Source: Escherichia phage ESCO13
DNA: 64,000 bases
Sequence record: NC_047770.1
Direction: 5' to 3' (one strand)
Shown: positions 21,379-57,033 of the stretch, piece by piece
Numbering within the stretch: the stretch's first letter is position 1
Layout: each line of letters begins with the position of its first letter
Translations under genes and position numbers: made by a program
Notes under the pieces: model-generated
Seen by the model: only the letters and a program-made list of their open reading frames with translations
Told to the model about the DNA's origin: nothing
Database searches by the model: none

Positions 21379-22032
21379 CTATACCAGACTTTGTAGGTAT
21401 TTGTCAAGGGCTTCTTGATCGCCTTGACAAACATAGCAACGGAAGTCTTGAGCCGAAGGTTGTTTATTTTCATCCCAGTCCCAATAAACATTACCCTTAT
21501 AACGTGAACCAGGAAACTCAAAAGAGGCTGTATGTGTAATGTATCCTGGGCCACCAGTGAAATCACAGAATGAGAATTGGGGGTATGCCGCCTTTACTGC
21601 CTCAATAAACCAAGCTTTACGATCTAAAGCTTCATTGATGCTATACGCATGTCTCTCCATTTCTTCCCACGTTTTCCAGACACTTCTCTCATCAGGAGAA
21701 AAGACAAGCCATTCTGGAAGGTATAGAGTGTCATAGTAATCATCATATTCGATCTCGGAGGCGCACGAAGCTGACTCCTCCAGTTTTGAGTAATCAAAAG
21801 CAGAATATACCCACCAACCATCTTCCAGTAACGCTTTGATAGGGACGAAGCCTTTATCAGCATATTGATCGAATTGTTTGACACGGTGGCTTGTGCAGTC
21901 TTCAAACTCACATTCTAAACGATATGCACCTTTTCGACGAGCCTCAAGACCGTGTGTACTGAAAATAACAACACTTCCTTCACCATCATTACGATCTACT
22001 TGATAAGCAACCACTGGTTTTGAATTTGACAT
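21379..22032 (-). CDS. hypothetical protein
   Basis: SD aaggagaaa; ATGA overlap. Confidence 0.5.
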   Translation of the reverse strand: MSNSKPVVAYQVDRNDGEGSVVIFSTHGLEARRKGAYRLECEFEDCTSHRVKQFDQYADKGFVPIKALLEDGWWVYSAFDYSKLEESASCASEIEYDDYYDTLYLPEWLVFSPDERSVWKTWEEMERHAYSINEALDRKAWFIEAVKAAYPQFSFCDFTGGPGYITHTASFEFPGSRYKGNVYWDWDENKQPSAQDFRCYVCQGDQEALDKYLQSLV

Positions 22033-22715
22033 TATTTCTCCTTATCTAGAAGATTGTTAGACAAAAACACTGCACGAGCAAAACCACGTGCGGTTAGTGA
22101 TCTAAGTTGTTTTGTTTTTGCACTAGCTCCACCTAAGCTTTTCCAACCCCAGAAGCAGCCTATATGATCTACTGGTTTCTTCACTGGTTGAACAAAACCA
22201 TTGCCGTGCCAAATACAAGTTTTCTTTGTATACCCATCACGGGTAGGCATTTTAGGATGAAAGCTTCCTTCCTCTTCAAACAAATACCCACCATACTCAT
22301 AAGGATCAAAGTAAAAATCGGGTTTACGCCATAAGGTTGAAAGTTTACCTACTGGGTTCTCAATCATCCAAGGAACATTATATTTGTTACCCAAAGCTTC
22401 CACTACACGAATATTAGCTAAAGCTTCATCCAATTCCTCTGTGCTGCGTTCGTGTTTGCTACCACTACCTGCTAACATAGTGCAAGGTGGAAATCCAAAA
22501 ATAATATCGGGTTTAGGTATCCCATGATCTTCAGGGTTGAATGTAGAATCTATCCAGGCATTCACATAGGTTATGTTTGGGTGCTCCATCCTAACCTCGT
22601 ATTTACCGTGATCCCCTTCATCAGCGTTTACACAAAAACACTTGTGACCTGCTTCGGCATAACGTAACACCATGATCCCAGATCCGTCAAACATAGACAA
22701 AACTGTTTTACTCAT
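22032..22715 (-). CDS. DNA (cytosine-5)-methyltransferase-like protein
   Basis: Start moved to ATG 22715 after SD ggagggg; SMFDGSG (FxGxG), GFPPCT (PC), MIENPVG (ENV-like). Confidence 0.5.
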   Translation of the reverse strand: MSKTVLSMFDGSGIMVLRYAEAGHKCFCVNADEGDHGKYEVRMEHPNITYVNAWIDSTFNPEDHGIPKPDIIFGFPPCTMLAGSGSKHERSTEELDEALANIRVVEALGNKYNVPWMIENPVGKLSTLWRKPDFYFDPYEYGGYLFEEEGSFHPKMPTRDGYTKKTCIWHGNGFVQPVKKPVDHIGCFWGWKSLGGASAKTKQLRSLTARGFARAVFLSNNLLDKEK

Positions 22716-23103
22716 TACCCCTCCATTCAAGACAAGCCATAACTTTACGCCAATCACTTTCTGTAAGAAAAATCTCGTTTGCTTTCTTCCACAAATCTAA
22801 ATCGTGAAGGGTTGGAATACGATATGTTAGTTCACAGAATCTATGCTCTTCTTCTGTAATATAACCAAAATGCAGAGCCACATCGTGAAACCAACACCAA
22901 CCATGCATCTCTCGAACAACATGGTCATGTTGAGACATTATTTTATGCCGTAAACCTAACCAACAAGGAACAGATACTTTAGTAGTCTTTAATCTGTGAT
23001 CAACAGTATTAGAGTATTCAATAATAGCTGTCAGTTTCAATCGTGCTTTTTCTAAATCCTCATGCGTCACTTTGAAATAACTTTCTGAAAGATATCCACA
23101 CAT
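22708..23103 (-). CDS. hypothetical protein
   Basis: Start moved to ATG 23103 after SD gaaggagg. Confidence 0.45.
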   Translation of the reverse strand: MCGYLSESYFKVTHEDLEKARLKLTAIIEYSNTVDHRLKTTKVSVPCWLGLRHKIMSQHDHVVREMHGWCWFHDVALHFGYITEEEHRFCELTYRIPTLHDLDLWKKANEIFLTESDWRKVMACLEWRGNE

Positions 23104-29125: not shown

Positions 29126-29635
29126 TTAAACAAAATAAAATGGTTGAGAGAGGCCCAAACGATTCTTTGGGTCGTATACATACCAAGCGTATGCTGTCTT
29201 ATCTGTTCCACCTGCAACAAACGAAGGCCGTTCTGAAAGGACTATAAGGTTTGTTGGTGGATTCTTTTGATGGAACTCTCGTCGTTTCTTTGACTCCAAG
29301 AAGCCCAACCGAAGAAGATAAATACAAACATCCGCCTCTTTTAAGCTCTTTTCCAAGAACTCCATTGCTAACTTAAATGGAGGATTTGTGATTATAATGT
29401 CGGGACGATTTTCCCATTCATGACTAAAATAATCTTTACCTTCTTCAAGTTCGCAATATTCTGAACCTTCAGGAAAATGGCGATAAATCGCTTCAGCTTC
29501 ACCTCTGCAAGGTTCTGCAAAAACCCAACCTTCTTCCTTTAGATTTTTGAAATCTATAACACTAAACAAACTATTGATTGCTTTTTGCGGTGTCGGATAA
29601 TAATCGCTCGTTGGGCGATCATAATCTAATGCCAT
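29126..29635 (-). CDS. phage-type DNA N6-adenine methyltransferase-like protein
   Basis: DYYPTP; EPCRGEAEAI; IITNPPF (NPPF motif IV); SD agaggag. Confidence 0.6.
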   Translation of the reverse strand: MALDYDRPTSDYYPTPQKAINSLFSVIDFKNLKEEGWVFAEPCRGEAEAIYRHFPEGSEYCELEEGKDYFSHEWENRPDIIITNPPFKLAMEFLEKSLKEADVCIYLLRLGFLESKKRREFHQKNPPTNLIVLSERPSFVAGGTDKTAYAWYVYDPKNRLGLSQPFYFV

Positions 29636-35331: not shown

Positions 35332-36324
35332 TTAAATCTTCTCACTCCACCATTGAGGGTTGTTTAAGTACCATTCAATCGTTGAGTAGAGATCTTGTTC
35401 AAATGTAGAGTTTGCACTCCAACCCAGTTCAGACTCTATTTTAGAAGGATTGATTTCATAACGCAAGTCATGTCCTTTACGATCTTCAACAAAAGTTATC
35501 AAGTTGGAAGAAGGGTAGGTTCCTGCTTCTGGATGTACAGCATCCATGTAGTCACAAACCATATAGATGATCTCCATATTGGTTTTGGGATTACGTGTTC
35601 CAACATTATACGTTTGACCTGGTTCTCCACCTGTTGCCACTTGAAGAATAGCTCGCGCATGATCCTCAACAAAAAGCCAGTCTCGCACCTGATCGCCTTT
35701 ACCATACACCGGAATCTCTTTATTCGTCAAGATACTTGTGATGATTTTTGGGATCAGCTTTTCTGGATGTTGATAAGGTCCAAAGTTATTGGAGCAGTTG
35801 GTTATCACAACAGGTAAACCGTAGGTACGGTACCAAGCTTTCACAAGATGGTCAGATGCTGCCTTAGACGCACTGTACGGGCTTGAAGGGGCATAAGCTG
35901 TCTCTTCGGTAAAGGGAACGCCAGAGTCTGCCATATCGCCGTACACTTCGTCTGTGGAGACATGTACGAACATCTTAAGTTTATTTTTTGGGAGGAGCCT
36001 TGCAGCTTCCAATAAATTGTATGTACCAATAATATTGGAGTCGATGAAAACTCGTGGATTCTTGATAGAATTATCCACATGACTCTCTGCCGCTAAGTGA
36101 ATGATGAAATCGGGATTGCACTCTACTACTAAACTTTTGACCTGGGTTTCGTTTGCCAAATCTGTTATGCTCAGTTTAACGTGAGTGATATCGCCTACAT
36201 TCTCAATATCTGCTGCATAGCCCATCTTATCAACGACAAAAACTTCGTTATTGGGATCTTGACAAAGAGAGCGCACCACGGCACTCCCAATAAAACCAAG
36301 ACCACCTGTTACCAGATAGCGCAT
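35332..36324 (-). CDS. rmlB: dTDP-glucose 4,6-dehydratase
   Basis: [22 protein letters not shown] (YxxxK); SD aaggagaa. Confidence 0.8.
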
Positions 36325-55771: not shown

Positions 55772-56078
55772 CTTTAACCACCTCCAATTGCCTTTCGAGT
55801 TTGACTTTGTTTGAGAACTGATAATGACACAACTTACATTGCATGTCAACAATCTGATCGTGATTTAACCCTACAATTTTAACTTCCTTTGCACCATCCC
55901 ATTCCAAATACTCAAAGCCATCCAAATGAGTACTCTTGTCCAACAAAAATGCTATCTGCTGCCATTCGATCTGAATGTCATTTAAATGATATGCTGCACA
56001 GAAGATATCCTCGTAGTAAAAGACGATCATTGTCATTGCTTCGTCCAGCACAACTACCTCTTGTCTTGTAAATCTCAT
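55755..56078 (-). CDS. hypothetical protein (first gene of the minus-strand block)
   Basis: SD aggagg 5 nt upstream. Confidence 0.45.
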   Translation of the reverse strand: MRFTRQEVVVLDEAMTMIVFYYEDIFCAAYHLNDIQIEWQQIAFLLDKSTHLDGFEYLEWDGAKEVKIVGLNHDQIVDMQCKLCHYQFSNKVKLERQLEVVKDDSTN

Positions 56079-56332
56079 TCTAGCCTCCTAAACGCGTCTC
56101 TGACGCACTTTTTATATATAAGATGATAAATCACCTTACCTAGTAAGTGAACTTGCTCTACGAGCCTCTTATGAAGCTTATGTTATAGGCTATACTATTG
56201 CTACCTGTTTAAGCAAGGTTTTTGCACACAGAAAATAATTTTAATAAAACTCTTGACTTTTGTGTTCGAAGTATGCTACCCTAGAAATCTATTAACGAGC
56301 GCAGCGAGTTAAGGTTTTAGGTTGTTGATGTA

Positions 56333-56366
56333 GTACTCTGTACTCAAGTACTGTACTCCGTACTAG
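56333..56366. repeat. five tandem GTACT(C) heptamer repeats
   Basis: gtactct gtactca agtact gtactcc gtactag in the divergent intergenic region. Confidence 0.6.
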
Positions 56367-56520
56367 ATTAATAATTATTAAATATTAATAATAAATAATT
56401 ATTAGATCTAACAAACAGGTACAGTGTATCAGAACTGGTACGTACAGATCAACTTCTATCAATTAAAAATAAAATAATAAATTATTATAAATAATACTTG
56501 ATCTATAGATCAGTATGAAG
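56367..56520. promoter_or_regulatory. AT-rich palindromic block with further GTAC-containing motifs
   Basis: attaataattattaaatattaataataaataattatt; ggtacagtg, ggtacgtacag, gtacagtacgg. Confidence 0.4.
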
Positions 56521-56558
56521 TACAGTACGGAACATCTTAACAAGAATGGAGGTGTGCA

Positions 56559-56744
56559 ATGATTAGCGAGAATCCGTGCAAATGGCATCATGTACCTATT
56601 AAAGATTGTATGTCTTGTAATCCACGTTCTATTTATAACATTGCATCTTATGACGATGACAATGTGTTAGACGATGATGAAGGCTGGGAGGATTTAGATT
56701 GGACTGGTTATGAAACCAAAAAGGATAAAATTATTCCTAGTTGA
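56559..56744 (+). CDS. hypothetical protein
   Basis: SD ggaggtg upstream. Confidence 0.45.
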   Translation: MISENPCKWHHVPIKDCMSCNPRSIYNIASYDDDNVLDDDEGWEDLDWTGYETKKDKIIPS

Positions 56745-56781: not shown

Positions 56782-57033
56782 ATGCCGATCACTCCCCATT
56801 TGGGGTTCGAAGGATATATGCAAAATAGTTTTTATTTTAGGTGCCGTGCTTGTAATAGGCATTTGACAAACCACTCCAGACGTGATAAAAATGGAGTCAT
56901 CAAGGAATCAGACCTCTGTTCTATTTGCACAGGTTTGGCTTTTGATGATAGTCCCGAAAGGGTTTATCAGCATCAATGTATAACAGACGTTCTCGTGTCA
57001 AACTTGGTAGAGGACGAACAACTAACAGATTAG
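56782..57033 (+). CDS. hypothetical Cys-rich protein
   Basis: SD gaggag; CRACN...CSIC. Confidence 0.45.
   Translation: MPITPHLGFEGYMQNSFYFRCRACNRHLTNHSRRDKNGVIKESDLCSICTGLAFDDSPERVYQHQCITDVLVSNLVEDEQLTD

What the first reader, a model, noticed from the sequence alone, without database searches (positions are those of the whole stretch)
56080..56558. Divergent intergenic hub with GTACT heptamer repeats and AT-rich palindromes
The 480-bp gap between the first minus-strand gene and the + strand genes holds five tandem GTACT(C) heptamers, an AT-rich palindromic block and further GTAC motifs. Iteron-like repeats beside an AT-rich tract suggest a replication origin or a regulator-binding array controlling both transcription units.
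Basis: seen in the sequence. Interest (0 to 1): 0.55.

Follow-up and report, generated by a model that had tools for sequence, protein, structure and literature searches.

The report
Phage promoter hub with GTAC cluster
The 480-bp gap is the central two-way transcription control region of a phAPEC8-like E. coli phage, and it holds a cluster of GTAC motifs that this genome otherwise avoids; the cluster looks more like a regulator-binding module than a replication origin, though an origin is not excluded.

Summary
Five GTACT copies sit at 56333-56364, next to a 38-bp A/T-only palindrome, and five more GTACs follow up to 56528. GTAC is the most avoided tetramer in this phage (observed/expected 0.35), so the cluster is far from chance and is unique in the 151.7-kb genome.

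The window is a Phapecoctavirus, near-identical to vB_EcoM-Ro121c4YLVW. The gap separates the leftward DNA-metabolism genes from the rightward tRNA, packaging and structural genes.

A promoter scan finds four sigma-70-type promoters in alternating directions. Three of them (P1, P_L1, P2) keep their hexamers and positions in the diverged phiWec188 clade. The GTACT array does not: it is a 37-nt insertion specific to the phAPEC8 clade. It lies, with the palindrome, between the convergent promoters P1 and P_L1.

As iterons the repeats are weak. The cores are 5 bp, the spacing is 7, 8, 5 and 7 bp, and the array is missing from the sister clade. GC skew turns at every strand switch, so it says nothing about an origin.

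My best reading is a multi-promoter switch with GTAC-centred operator sites for an unknown factor. A transcription-primed origin (a promoter firing into the genome's most meltable DNA) stays a live rival. Nothing here is experimentally shown.

The parts
56123..56151 (-). P_L2, the predicted leftward promoter next to the first minus-strand gene (TTCACT-N17-TATCAT)
   Evidence: Found by the promoter scan. My position-weight scan scores it 10.6, in the top 0.065% of genome positions. The block is invariant in 9 relatives.
56094..56106 (-). 5' leader hairpin (GCGTC-aga-GACGC on the minus strand), just upstream of the AGGAGG ribosome-binding site (about 56084-56089) and the ATG ending at 56078
   Evidence: One search flagged it as a terminator-like hairpin on the + strand. 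It has the same promoter-hairpin-ribosome-binding-site layout as about 25 early genes of this phage. Its function is inferred.
56253..56282 (+). P1, a predicted rightward promoter: TTGACT-N18-TGcTACCCT (extended -10). An 18-bp A/T run lies upstream at 56232-56249.
   Evidence: Score 12.2, top 0.033%. The -35, the TGn and the TACCCT are identical in phiWec188, phiWec179 and PsgM04F although the spacer has changed.
56292..56312 (+). Conserved start of the P1 transcript with the small hairpin TTAAC-N11-GTTAA
   Evidence: The 26-mer CTATTAACGAGCGCAGCGAGTTAAGG is identical in clades A and B. The hairpin appears in the RNA fold.
56309..56321 (.). TTAAGGTTT unit with variable copy number
   Evidence: It is duplicated in UP17 and Ro121lw and present in about three copies in anhysbys.
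56332..56366 (+). GTACT array: five GTACT copies (two of them inside AGTACT palindromes), including CTGTAC twice
   Evidence: repeat family D6. It falls inside a 37-nt insertion relative to clade B. It is identical in 11 of 15 clade-A genomes and in two metagenome contigs.
56367..56404 (.). AT1: a 38-bp A/T-only near-palindrome
   Evidence: I2: 18-nt arms, 89% complementary. It is the longest A/T-only run in the genome. Clade B has no A/T-only tract at this position.
56423..56452 (-). P_L1, a predicted leftward promoter: TTGATC-N18-TGaTACACT. It faces P1. Its spacer holds GTACGTAC, and GTACAG lies just downstream of its -10.
   Evidence: Score 11.1, top 0.052%. Clade B has TTGATC-N18-TGtTACTAT at the homologous position with a different spacer. 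The hexamers are conserved in 15 relatives, except TTGATA in phAPEC8.
56461..56496 (.). AT2: a 36-bp A/T-only tract between the back-to-back promoters P_L1 and P2. It is likely a shared upstream (UP-type) element.
   Evidence: It is the second-longest A/T-only run in the genome. It is partly conserved in clade B, where a 23-bp A/T run lies at the same place. Its length varies among relatives. The UP-element role is inferred.
56498..56526 (+). P2, a predicted rightward promoter (TTGATC-N17-TACAGT). Its -10 is embedded in GTACAGTAC. The GGAGG site and the ATG at 56559 follow.
   Evidence: Score 10.5, top 0.069%. Clade B has TTGACT-N18-TGtTAGAGT at the same place, score 13.3.
56419..56528 (.). 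Five further GTAC sites (56419, 56438, 56442, 56520, 56525). Three of them are GTACAG, the reverse complement of the array's CTGTAC.
   Evidence: None of them is a GTAC at the homologous clade-B positions.

Best explanation
The gap is the central bidirectional control region of a Phapecoctavirus genome. It holds four host-type (sigma-70) promoters in alternating directions: P_L2 (leftward), P1 (rightward), P_L1 (leftward) and P2 (rightward).

P_L2 and P_L1 feed the leftward block of about 36 kb of small genes and DNA-metabolism genes. P1 and P2 feed the rightward block of two small Cys-rich proteins, the tRNA cluster, and the lysis, terminase and structural genes. AT2 lies between the back-to-back pair P_L1 and P2 and most likely serves as their shared upstream element.

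P1 and P_L1 fire towards each other across about 125 bp. In the phAPEC8 clade that convergent stretch carries an added module, the GTACT array plus the AT1 palindrome.

I propose that the ten GTAC-centred sites form one operator set for a DNA-binding factor that has not been identified. They comprise five sites in the array and five that overlap the P_L1 spacer and start and the P2 -10. CTGTAC/GTACAG occurs five times in both orientations. Occupying these sites would block P1 read-through and shut P_L1 and P2. That would set the balance or the timing between leftward and rightward transcription.

What is shown: the sequence anatomy, the statistical singularity, and the conservation of three promoter cores across clades. 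What is inferred: that the promoters fire, that AT2 acts as an upstream element, and that a protein binds the GTAC sites.
For: - Identity and context: the window matches vB_EcoM-Ro121c4YLVW and ESCO37 at 100% over the 3 kb tested. The gene map shows a divergence point between the two large blocks.
- Promoters: four sites score in the top 0.03-0.07% genome-wide. The phage's many other promoters are plain sigma-70 type, and many are followed by a leader hairpin; P_L2 and P1 share this layout. The rV5 paper also found sigma-70-type promoters throughout (PMC3606486).
- Conservation: P1, P_L1 and P2 keep their -35 and extended -10 and their order in the phiWec188 clade, while the spacers and the DNA between the promoters have diverged.
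- The GTAC sites look maintained rather than accidental. The hub has 10. Other non-coding DNA has 3 against 15.9 expected, and coding DNA has 49 against 158. GTAC is the most avoided tetramer.
- Five of the ten sites lie outside the slippage-prone array, in unique sequence that overlaps promoter elements. Clade B has no GTAC at those positions.
- Clade B carries a different short repeat in the same convergent stretch (GATCTAAAAGAC and GATCTTAAAGAC, plus a third AGATCT). This fits clade-specific operators.
Against: - No transcription start, protein binding or expression data exist for this phage group.
- No candidate regulator was found. The eight flanking ORFs and the extra clade-B ORF have no Pfam or PDB match and only unknown-function PHROG families.
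- Spacing of 5-8 bp is too tight for most DNA-binding dimers to fill every site.
- The array is a recent clade-specific insertion, so it may simply not have been purged yet.
- The region is an indel hot spot, which suggests loose constraint. dw-ec lacks 14 nt of the array, EP57 lacks the P2 -10, and one copy in the nieznany record lacks P_L1 and AT2. Some of these may be assembly errors.
- AT1 is not upstream of any good promoter, so this model does not explain it well.
Confidence: 0.4

Rival explanations
1. Transcription-primed replication origin of the T7 primary-origin or T4 oriF/oriG type. P1 (or P_L1) transcribes into the AT1/AT2 tracts. The duplex opens there, and an R-loop or the phage primase-helicase starts DNA synthesis. 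The GTACT array would be an accessory site for loading or priming.
For: - The hub holds the two longest A/T-only runs and the most AT-rich 150 bp of the 151.7-kb genome.
- A strong predicted promoter points into AT1 from about 80 bp away.
- The genome record annotates a T7 gp4-like primase/helicase and a family-A DNA polymerase.
- The locus is unique in the genome.
- Cumulative GC skew has a local minimum here.
Against: - GC skew turns at all four strand switches (about 25, 69, 105 and 141 kb), so the minimum is explained by gene orientation (the same was reported for rV5).
- AT1 and the array are absent from clade B, which must also replicate.
- AT2 is explained as well by a shared upstream promoter element.
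- The same genome has another candidate. A 1.2-kb non-coding stretch (NC_052654 134,400-135,630) has direct repeats of 72 and 51 nt and is also very AT-rich.
Confidence: 0.2
2. The promoter hub is real, but the GTACT array has no function. It would be a young product of slippage or insertion in a loosely constrained spacer, not yet removed by the selection that depletes GTAC elsewhere.
For: - The array is clade-specific.
- The neighbouring TTAAGGTTT unit and AT2 also vary in copy number or length among genomes more than 95% identical.
- dw-ec has a 14-nt deletion between GTACT copies.
- All clade-A genomes are at least about 94% identical across the gap, which leaves little time for purging.
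Against: - Five extra GTACs lie in unique, non-repetitive sequence that overlaps promoter elements, and slippage cannot create those.
- The hub has about 15 times the GTAC density of other non-coding DNA.
- The array is identical in 11 of 15 genomes and in two metagenome contigs.
Confidence: 0.25
3. A methylation-sensing element. The GTAC sites, and the GATC sites in the -35 boxes of P_L1 and P2, would be methylation targets. Their fully methylated or hemimethylated state after replication would switch the promoters or license an origin, as GATC heptamers do at P1 oriR and GATC sites do in Dam-regulated promoters.
For: - GTAC and GATC sit inside promoter elements: TTGATC at both -35 boxes, and GTACAGTAC over the P2 -10.
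- The phage encodes at least two methyltransferase-like ORFs. By eye, 22032-22757(-) has the motifs FDGSG, PPC and ENP, and 29126-29635(-) has NPPF.
- The nanopore-only BI-EHEC assembly (PMC8686590) reads ATAC at 22 of the 46 aligned GTAC sites. Most of its 29 changed GTAC sites are this one change. The bias is strand-asymmetric (22 G>A against 2 C>T, and 9:0 where either change would be synonymous), and no GTAC was gained. This is the pattern expected from base-calling errors at a modified motif.
Against: - The specificity of the methyltransferases is unknown, and neither matches a Pfam or NCBIfam model.
- A phage that methylates GTAC would have little reason to avoid GTAC.
- dw-ec comes from the same country, and its sequencing method was not checked. 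It keeps every GTAC in the hub that its 14-nt array deletion does not remove.
- Four GATCs in 110 bp occur at four other places in the genome.
Confidence: 0.08
4. Packaging (pac) recognition site at the head of the operon that contains the terminase. Clustered short motifs would flank a bendable AT-rich centre, as in P1 pac.
For: - The locus is unique and lies at the start of the rightward block; the large terminase gene is about 4.6 kb downstream.
- Relatives are described as circularly permuted, which implies headful packaging.
- The nieznany record breaks inside the array.
Against: - Only 1 of 69 records breaks here. That record has the hub at both ends, one copy with a 66-bp deletion, which looks like an untrimmed circular assembly.
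- The array is absent from clade B.
- No small terminase gene is adjacent.
Confidence: 0.05

Closest known systems
Divergent and convergent promoter control regions of phages (coliphage 186 pR/pL face-to-face switch; P22 immI Pant/Psar). From my own knowledge.
   Same: Several host-type promoters are packed into a few hundred bp between oppositely oriented operons. One pair fires head-on across a short overlap, so that interference and operator occupancy could set the direction.
   Different: No repressor or antisense RNA is known here, and no transcripts have been mapped. This phage is strictly lytic. The overlap carries a GTAC repeat and a 38-bp A/T palindrome that those systems lack.
Tandem short-unit operators of ribbon-helix-helix repressors (omega of pSM19035, 7-bp heptads; MetJ, 8-bp met boxes). 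From my own knowledge.
   Same: Arrays of 2-10 units of 7-8 bp next to promoters. Each unit has a small, partly palindromic core and the units can occur in either orientation.
   Different: Those arrays are strictly periodic, whereas this one is spaced 7, 8, 5 and 7 bp. No ribbon-helix-helix protein was found among the eight flanking ORFs.
Promoter-plus-unwinding-element origins (T7 primary origin; T4 oriF/oriG). From my own knowledge.
   Same: A promoter fires into a very AT-rich tract within about 100 bp, in a phage with a T7-like primase-helicase and a family-A polymerase.
   Different: No initiation has been mapped. The most extreme tract (AT1) is missing from the sister clade. Those origins have no repeat array.
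Iteron origins (lambda ori, P1 oriR, plasmid origins). From my own knowledge.
   Same: Direct repeats lie beside an AT-rich tract. P1 oriR also has 7-bp repeats built on a 4-bp palindromic methylation site.
   Different: Iterons are 17-22 bp and spaced in helical phase, and an initiator gene lies nearby. Here the cores are 5 bp, the spacing is irregular, no initiator is recognisable, and the array is not conserved.

Membership tests
Iteron-type replication origin | Three or more direct repeats of about 17-22 bp, spaced in helical phase | tested here: not met
   The repeats have a 5-bp core (units of 7-8 bp) at spacings of 7, 8, 5 and 7 bp. Tandem Repeats Finder does not call them.
Iteron-type replication origin | Adjacent AT-rich unwinding region | tested here: met
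   A 38-bp A/T-only tract abuts the array. It is the longest such tract in the genome.
Iteron-type replication origin | Initiator gene at or next to the repeats | tested here: inconclusive
   The eight flanking ORFs have no Pfam or PDB match, and their PHROG families are of unknown function. A novel initiator cannot be excluded.
Iteron-type replication origin | Repeats conserved among related genomes that share the replication genes | tested here: not met
   The array is a 37-nt insertion absent from phiWec188, phiWec179 and PsgM04F.
Iteron-type replication origin | A distinctive strand-composition switch at the site | tested here: inconclusive
   Cumulative GC skew has a minimum near here. 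It also turns at all four gene-orientation switches.
Transcription-primed origin (T7/T4 type) | Promoter directed into an AT-rich unwinding element within about 100 bp | tested here: met
   The predicted P1 has its -10 ending at 56282, and AT1 starts at 56367. This is a prediction only.
Transcription-primed origin (T7/T4 type) | DNA synthesis starts at the site | not testable with these tools
   This needs marker-frequency analysis or replication-intermediate mapping.
Sigma-70 multi-promoter control region | -35 and -10 hexamers with 16-18 bp spacing that score far above the genome background | tested here: met
   P1 scores 12.2, P_L1 11.1, P_L2 10.6 and P2 10.5, all in the top 0.03-0.07% of genome positions. 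Known-type early promoters score 11.9-13.8.
Sigma-70 multi-promoter control region | Promoter cores conserved while the surrounding sequence diverges | tested here: met
   P1, P_L1 and P2 are conserved in clade B with changed spacers. P_L2 is replaced there by a different promoter ahead of an inserted gene.
Sigma-70 multi-promoter control region | Mapped transcription start sites | not testable with these tools
   No transcript data were found for this genus.
Ribbon-helix-helix heptad operator (omega/MetJ type) | Contiguous, strictly periodic 7-8 bp units | tested here: not met
   The spacing is 7, 8, 5 and 7 bp.
Ribbon-helix-helix heptad operator (omega/MetJ type) | Cognate small repressor gene nearby | tested here: inconclusive
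   No ribbon-helix-helix or helix-turn-helix family matches the eight flanking ORFs. The rest of the roughly 270 genes was not scanned.
Known RNA family | Match to an Rfam covariance model | tested here: not met
   Only the two tRNAs downstream match. Nothing in 56079-56558 matches, even at E<=5. The 15-genome alignment shows no compensatory pairs.
Methylation-controlled element (P1 oriR / Dam-regulated promoter type) | The repeated palindromic core is a substrate of a methyltransferase present during infection | tested here: inconclusive
   The only hint is indirect: strand-asymmetric GTAC to ATAC calls in a nanopore-only assembly. The specificities of the methyltransferase-like ORFs are unknown.

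The most novel reading that the evidence does not exclude
The GTAC cluster, kept against genome-wide GTAC avoidance beside the genome's most meltable DNA, marks a replication-coupled switch. It would be either the phage's transcription-primed origin or a methylation-sensing control point. In the second case the modification state of GTAC and GATC inside the P_L1 and P2 promoter elements tells replicated templates from unreplicated ones and flips transcription from the leftward metabolic block to the rightward tRNA, packaging and structural block.
Probability: 0.15. Interest if true: 0.7.

Novelty: new member of a known kind. Interest (0 to 1): 0.4.

Why it matters
rV5- and phAPEC8-like phages are among the E. 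coli phages most often isolated for therapy and food safety. Even so, their origin of replication and the way they time gene expression are unknown. The rV5 paper could not locate an origin by skew and found no dedicated late-transcription factors.

This 480-bp hub is the one clearly singular non-coding locus at the junction of the two largest gene blocks. It therefore gives a concrete and small target for start-site mapping, binding assays and deletion.

The GTAC cluster is also a clean natural experiment. A motif that the genome purges everywhere else is kept in only one place.

Tried and rejected
- **Natural variation in the array.** BI-EHEC and KKP3954 seemed to have mutated every hub GTAC, and a 9-mer pair (GTACTGTAC at 56348 against GTACAGTAC at 56520) seemed to co-vary. 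I rejected this evidence for three reasons. BI-EHEC is a nanopore-only assembly. Its changes are genome-wide, confined to GTAC and strand-asymmetric. KKP3954 shows double hits (ATAT). These records say nothing reliable about constraint.
- **RNA element.** Rfam finds nothing. The fold z-scores are modest (-2.1 and -3.4) and are driven by the palindromic GUAC and the A/U palindromes. The alignment fold shows no compensatory pairs.
- **Host regulator sites, checked by eye.** I considered LexA, TrpR (GTACTAG half-site only), NarL heptamers (TACYYMT, at best 6 of 7 and all in direct orientation), DnaA, IHF and CRP. None fits.
- **Flanking proteins as regulators or initiators.** There are no informative matches.
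- **Collection scans with the conserved P1 leader.** A 15-mer gave only chance hits. Longer patterns gave only clade-A or clade-B copies and no third variant.
- **The Seunavirus homologue of the 61-aa gene.** It lies in a different context, so it gives no comparison.
- **The second GTAC cluster (35825-36023).** It lies inside a sugar-nucleotide dehydratase/epimerase-type gene and is unrelated.
- **The GATC cluster.** Four in 110 bp is not unique in the genome.
- **Literature.** I found no paper on this region, on Phapecoctavirus transcription or on its origin.

Full report
**What the window is.** A 3-kb stretch around the finding matches Escherichia phages vB_EcoM-Ro121c4YLVW and ESCO37 at 100% and about 60 other Phapecoctavirus genomes at 95-99.9%. 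In NC_052654 the gap lies at 68748-69227. That genome has four gene blocks. Genes run rightward over 141.7-151.7 kb and on to 25.8 kb. They run leftward over 25.9-68.7 kb, which holds the tail, head, terminase and lysis genes, ten tRNAs and two small genes. They run rightward again over 69.2-105.3 kb, which holds small genes, ligase, nucleases, ribonucleotide reductase and sugar-nucleotide genes. They run leftward over 105.3-141.6 kb, which holds about 100 small early genes. The gap under study is therefore one of only two divergence points. In window orientation it separates the leftward DNA-metabolism block from the rightward tRNA, packaging and structural block.

**The observation.** It is correct at the stated coordinates. 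GTACT starts at 56333, 56340, 56348, 56353 and 56360. Further GTACs lie at 56419, 56438, 56442, 56520 and 56525. A near-perfect A/T palindrome with 18-nt arms and no spacer lies at 56369-56404.

The background makes this striking. GTACT occurs 33 times in the window against 96.8 +/- 9.6 in shuffles. GTAC is the most under-represented of all 256 tetramers in the genome (0.35), ahead of GGCC, CCGG and CTAG. That is the usual signature of restriction-site avoidance. It fits the report that these phages are exceptionally sensitive to restriction-modification systems (PMC8594841). No other place in the 151.7-kb genome has more than three GTACs in 100 bp. Non-coding DNA outside the hub has 3 GTACs against 15.9 expected.

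The two A/T-only runs here (38 and 36 bp) are the two longest in the genome. The 150 bp from 56361 are the most AT-rich 150 bp in the genome. The locus is singular on two independent counts.

**Anatomy.** The phage's other promoters are ordinary sigma-70 type (TTGACA, 16-17 bp, TAAGAT/TAAACT/TATAAT). In the early block they are followed by a conserved leader hairpin and a ribosome-binding site. The rV5 paper says the same for a related phage.

A position-weight scan calibrated on the whole genome finds four sites in the gap, all within the top 0.03-0.07% of positions:
- P_L2, 56151-56123, minus strand: TTCACT-N17-TATCAT. The hairpin at 56106-56094 and an AGGAGG follow it.
- P1, 56253-56282, plus strand: TTGACT-N18-TGcTACCCT.
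- P_L1, 56452-56423, minus strand: TTGATC-N18-TGaTACACT.
- P2, 56498-56526, plus strand: TTGATC-N17-TACAGT.

P_L1 and P2 stand back to back around AT2. P1 and P_L1 face each other. The GTACT array and AT1 lie in the roughly 125 bp between their predicted start points.

**Comparison with relatives.** Among 15 clade-A genomes the promoter cores are invariant or nearly so, and 11 carry an identical array. Two metagenome contigs carry it too. Length changes are frequent elsewhere in the gap. The TTAAGGTTT unit has one to three copies. AT2 gains or loses 1-10 bp. dw-ec lacks 14 nt of the array, and EP57 lacks 38 bp that include the P2 -10. The nieznany record carries the hub at both ends, and one copy lacks 66 bp covering P_L1 and AT2.

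The informative comparison is with the diverged phiWec188, phiWec179 and PsgM04F clade. P1 is kept with an identical -35, TGn and TACCCT and with a 26-nt identical transcript start. P_L1 is kept as TTGATC-N18-TGtTACTAT. An A/T run of 23 bp and P2 (TTGACT-N18-TGtTAGAGT) are kept as well. Spacers and the sequence in between differ. The GTACT array falls in a 37-nt gap of that alignment, and clade B has no A/T-only tract at the AT1 position. In its place clade B has a different short repeat (GATCTAAAAGAC and GATCTTAAAGAC, plus a third AGATCT). None of the five non-array GTACs of clade A is a GTAC in clade B.

**A trap.** BI-EHEC and KKP3954 appeared to have mutated almost every GTAC in the hub. 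One inverted 9-mer pair even seemed to co-vary. Genome-wide, BI-EHEC has changed 29 of 46 aligned GTACs with none gained. The changes are strongly strand-asymmetric: 22 G>A against 2 C>T, and 9 to 0 at sites where either change would be synonymous. BI-EHEC was assembled from nanopore reads only (Guppy 4.0.11, Flye, Medaka; PMC8686590). KKP3954 shows double hits (ATAT) that selection would not need. I treat both records as unreliable at GTAC. The only thing they suggest is that GTAC may have been modified in those DNA preparations.

**Origin or not.** Cumulative GC skew peaks or troughs at about 25, 69, 105 and 141 kb, which is every strand switch. The trough at the hub therefore says nothing about replication. 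The rV5 authors reached the same conclusion for their phage.

As iterons the repeats fail on length, phasing and conservation, and no initiator is recognisable nearby. What remains in favour of an origin is the pairing of a strong predicted promoter with the genome's most meltable DNA. The phage also encodes a T7-like primase-helicase and a family-A polymerase according to the record's annotation. That is the T7 or T4 style of origin. It does not need iterons, and I cannot exclude it. A second candidate exists in the same genome. It is a 1.2-kb non-coding stretch at 134.4-135.6 kb with 72-nt and 51-nt direct repeats.

**RNA and protein checks.** Rfam finds nothing in the gap. Predicted folds are only moderately better than shuffles, and the alignment shows no compensatory pairs. 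The flanking ORFs are of unknown function.

**Verdict.**
- The gap is best read as a four-promoter control hub. I put about 0.75 on that general statement.
- The GTAC sites are probably functional. They are enriched about 15-fold over other non-coding DNA, and half of them lie in unique sequence over promoter elements.
- The most economical mechanism is a set of operator sites for an unidentified factor that gates P1 read-through, P_L1 and P2. I put 0.4 on this full model.
- The rivals are a transcription-primed origin (0.2), a functionless young insertion (0.25), a methylation-sensing element (0.08) and a pac site (0.05).
- All functional statements are inferences from sequence.

Noticed in passing
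whole window; NC_052654 genome (L002-L005): GTAC, GGCC, CCGG and CTAG are the four most under-represented tetramers (0.35, 0.38, 0.43, 0.51). This is the classic pattern of restriction-site avoidance.
   Followed up: partly
L137 (BI-EHEC, OL505078 10001-60000) and L138 (KKP3954, OR067838 90001-140000): In these two records 29 and 24 of 46 aligned GTAC sites read ATAC, GTAT or ATAT, against overall divergence of 1.5-2%. In BI-EHEC (nanopore-only) the changes are strongly strand-asymmetric, which suggests consensus errors at a modified GTAC motif rather than evolution.
   Followed up: partly
L004:34400-35630 (NC_052654 134,400-135,630; outside the window): A 1.2-kb non-coding stretch holds four Fur-box-like 21-mers (for example AAATGATAATCATTCTCATTT) at 29-bp spacing. 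It also has two to three copies of a 72-nt direct repeat with promoter-like TTGACT boxes. It could be an origin or an iron-linked regulatory region.
   Followed up: partly
L004:23700-34400 (partly window about 1-2000): About 25 small early genes each have their own TTGACA-N16/17-TAAGAT-type promoter. Each promoter is followed by a near-identical leader hairpin (GGGCGGC-AATGGT-GCCGC) before the ribosome-binding site.
   Followed up: no
window 22032-22757 (-) and 29126-29635 (-): Two annotated DNA methyltransferases have no Pfam or NCBIfam match. By eye, the first has cytosine-C5-like motifs (FDGSG, GFPPC, ENP) in only 227 aa, and the second has an NPPF motif. Their targets are unknown.
   Followed up: partly
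L151:1-460 and L152:280-499 (phage nieznany, MN850598): The record carries the hub at both ends, which looks like an untrimmed circular assembly. One copy lacks 66 bp covering P_L1 and AT2. This is either a polymorphism in the phage stock or an assembly artefact at the A/T palindromes.
   Followed up: partly
L147:412-432 and L150:263-283: The 21-mer AACGAGCGCAGCGAGTTAAGG from the conserved P1 transcript start occurs exactly in two unrelated metagenome contigs. This may be chance, since about 0.5 hits are expected.
   Followed up: no
window 35825-36023: A second, weaker GTAC cluster (6 in 200 bp) lies inside a sugar-nucleotide dehydratase/epimerase-type gene. The gene may be a more recent acquisition that has not yet adapted to GTAC avoidance.
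   Followed up: no
window 56559-56744 and 56782-57033: The first two rightward genes encode small Cys-rich proteins. One has Cx9Cx2C plus a very acidic tail, and the other has two CxxC pairs. Their function is unknown. They could be zinc-binding regulators.
   Followed up: partly
L006:2573-2785 (phiWec188 clade): Clade B has an extra 70-aa ORF inserted inside the hub, between the first leftward gene and P1. It has its own predicted promoter (TTGTGT-N16-TGnTATAGT) and no family match.
   Followed up: partly
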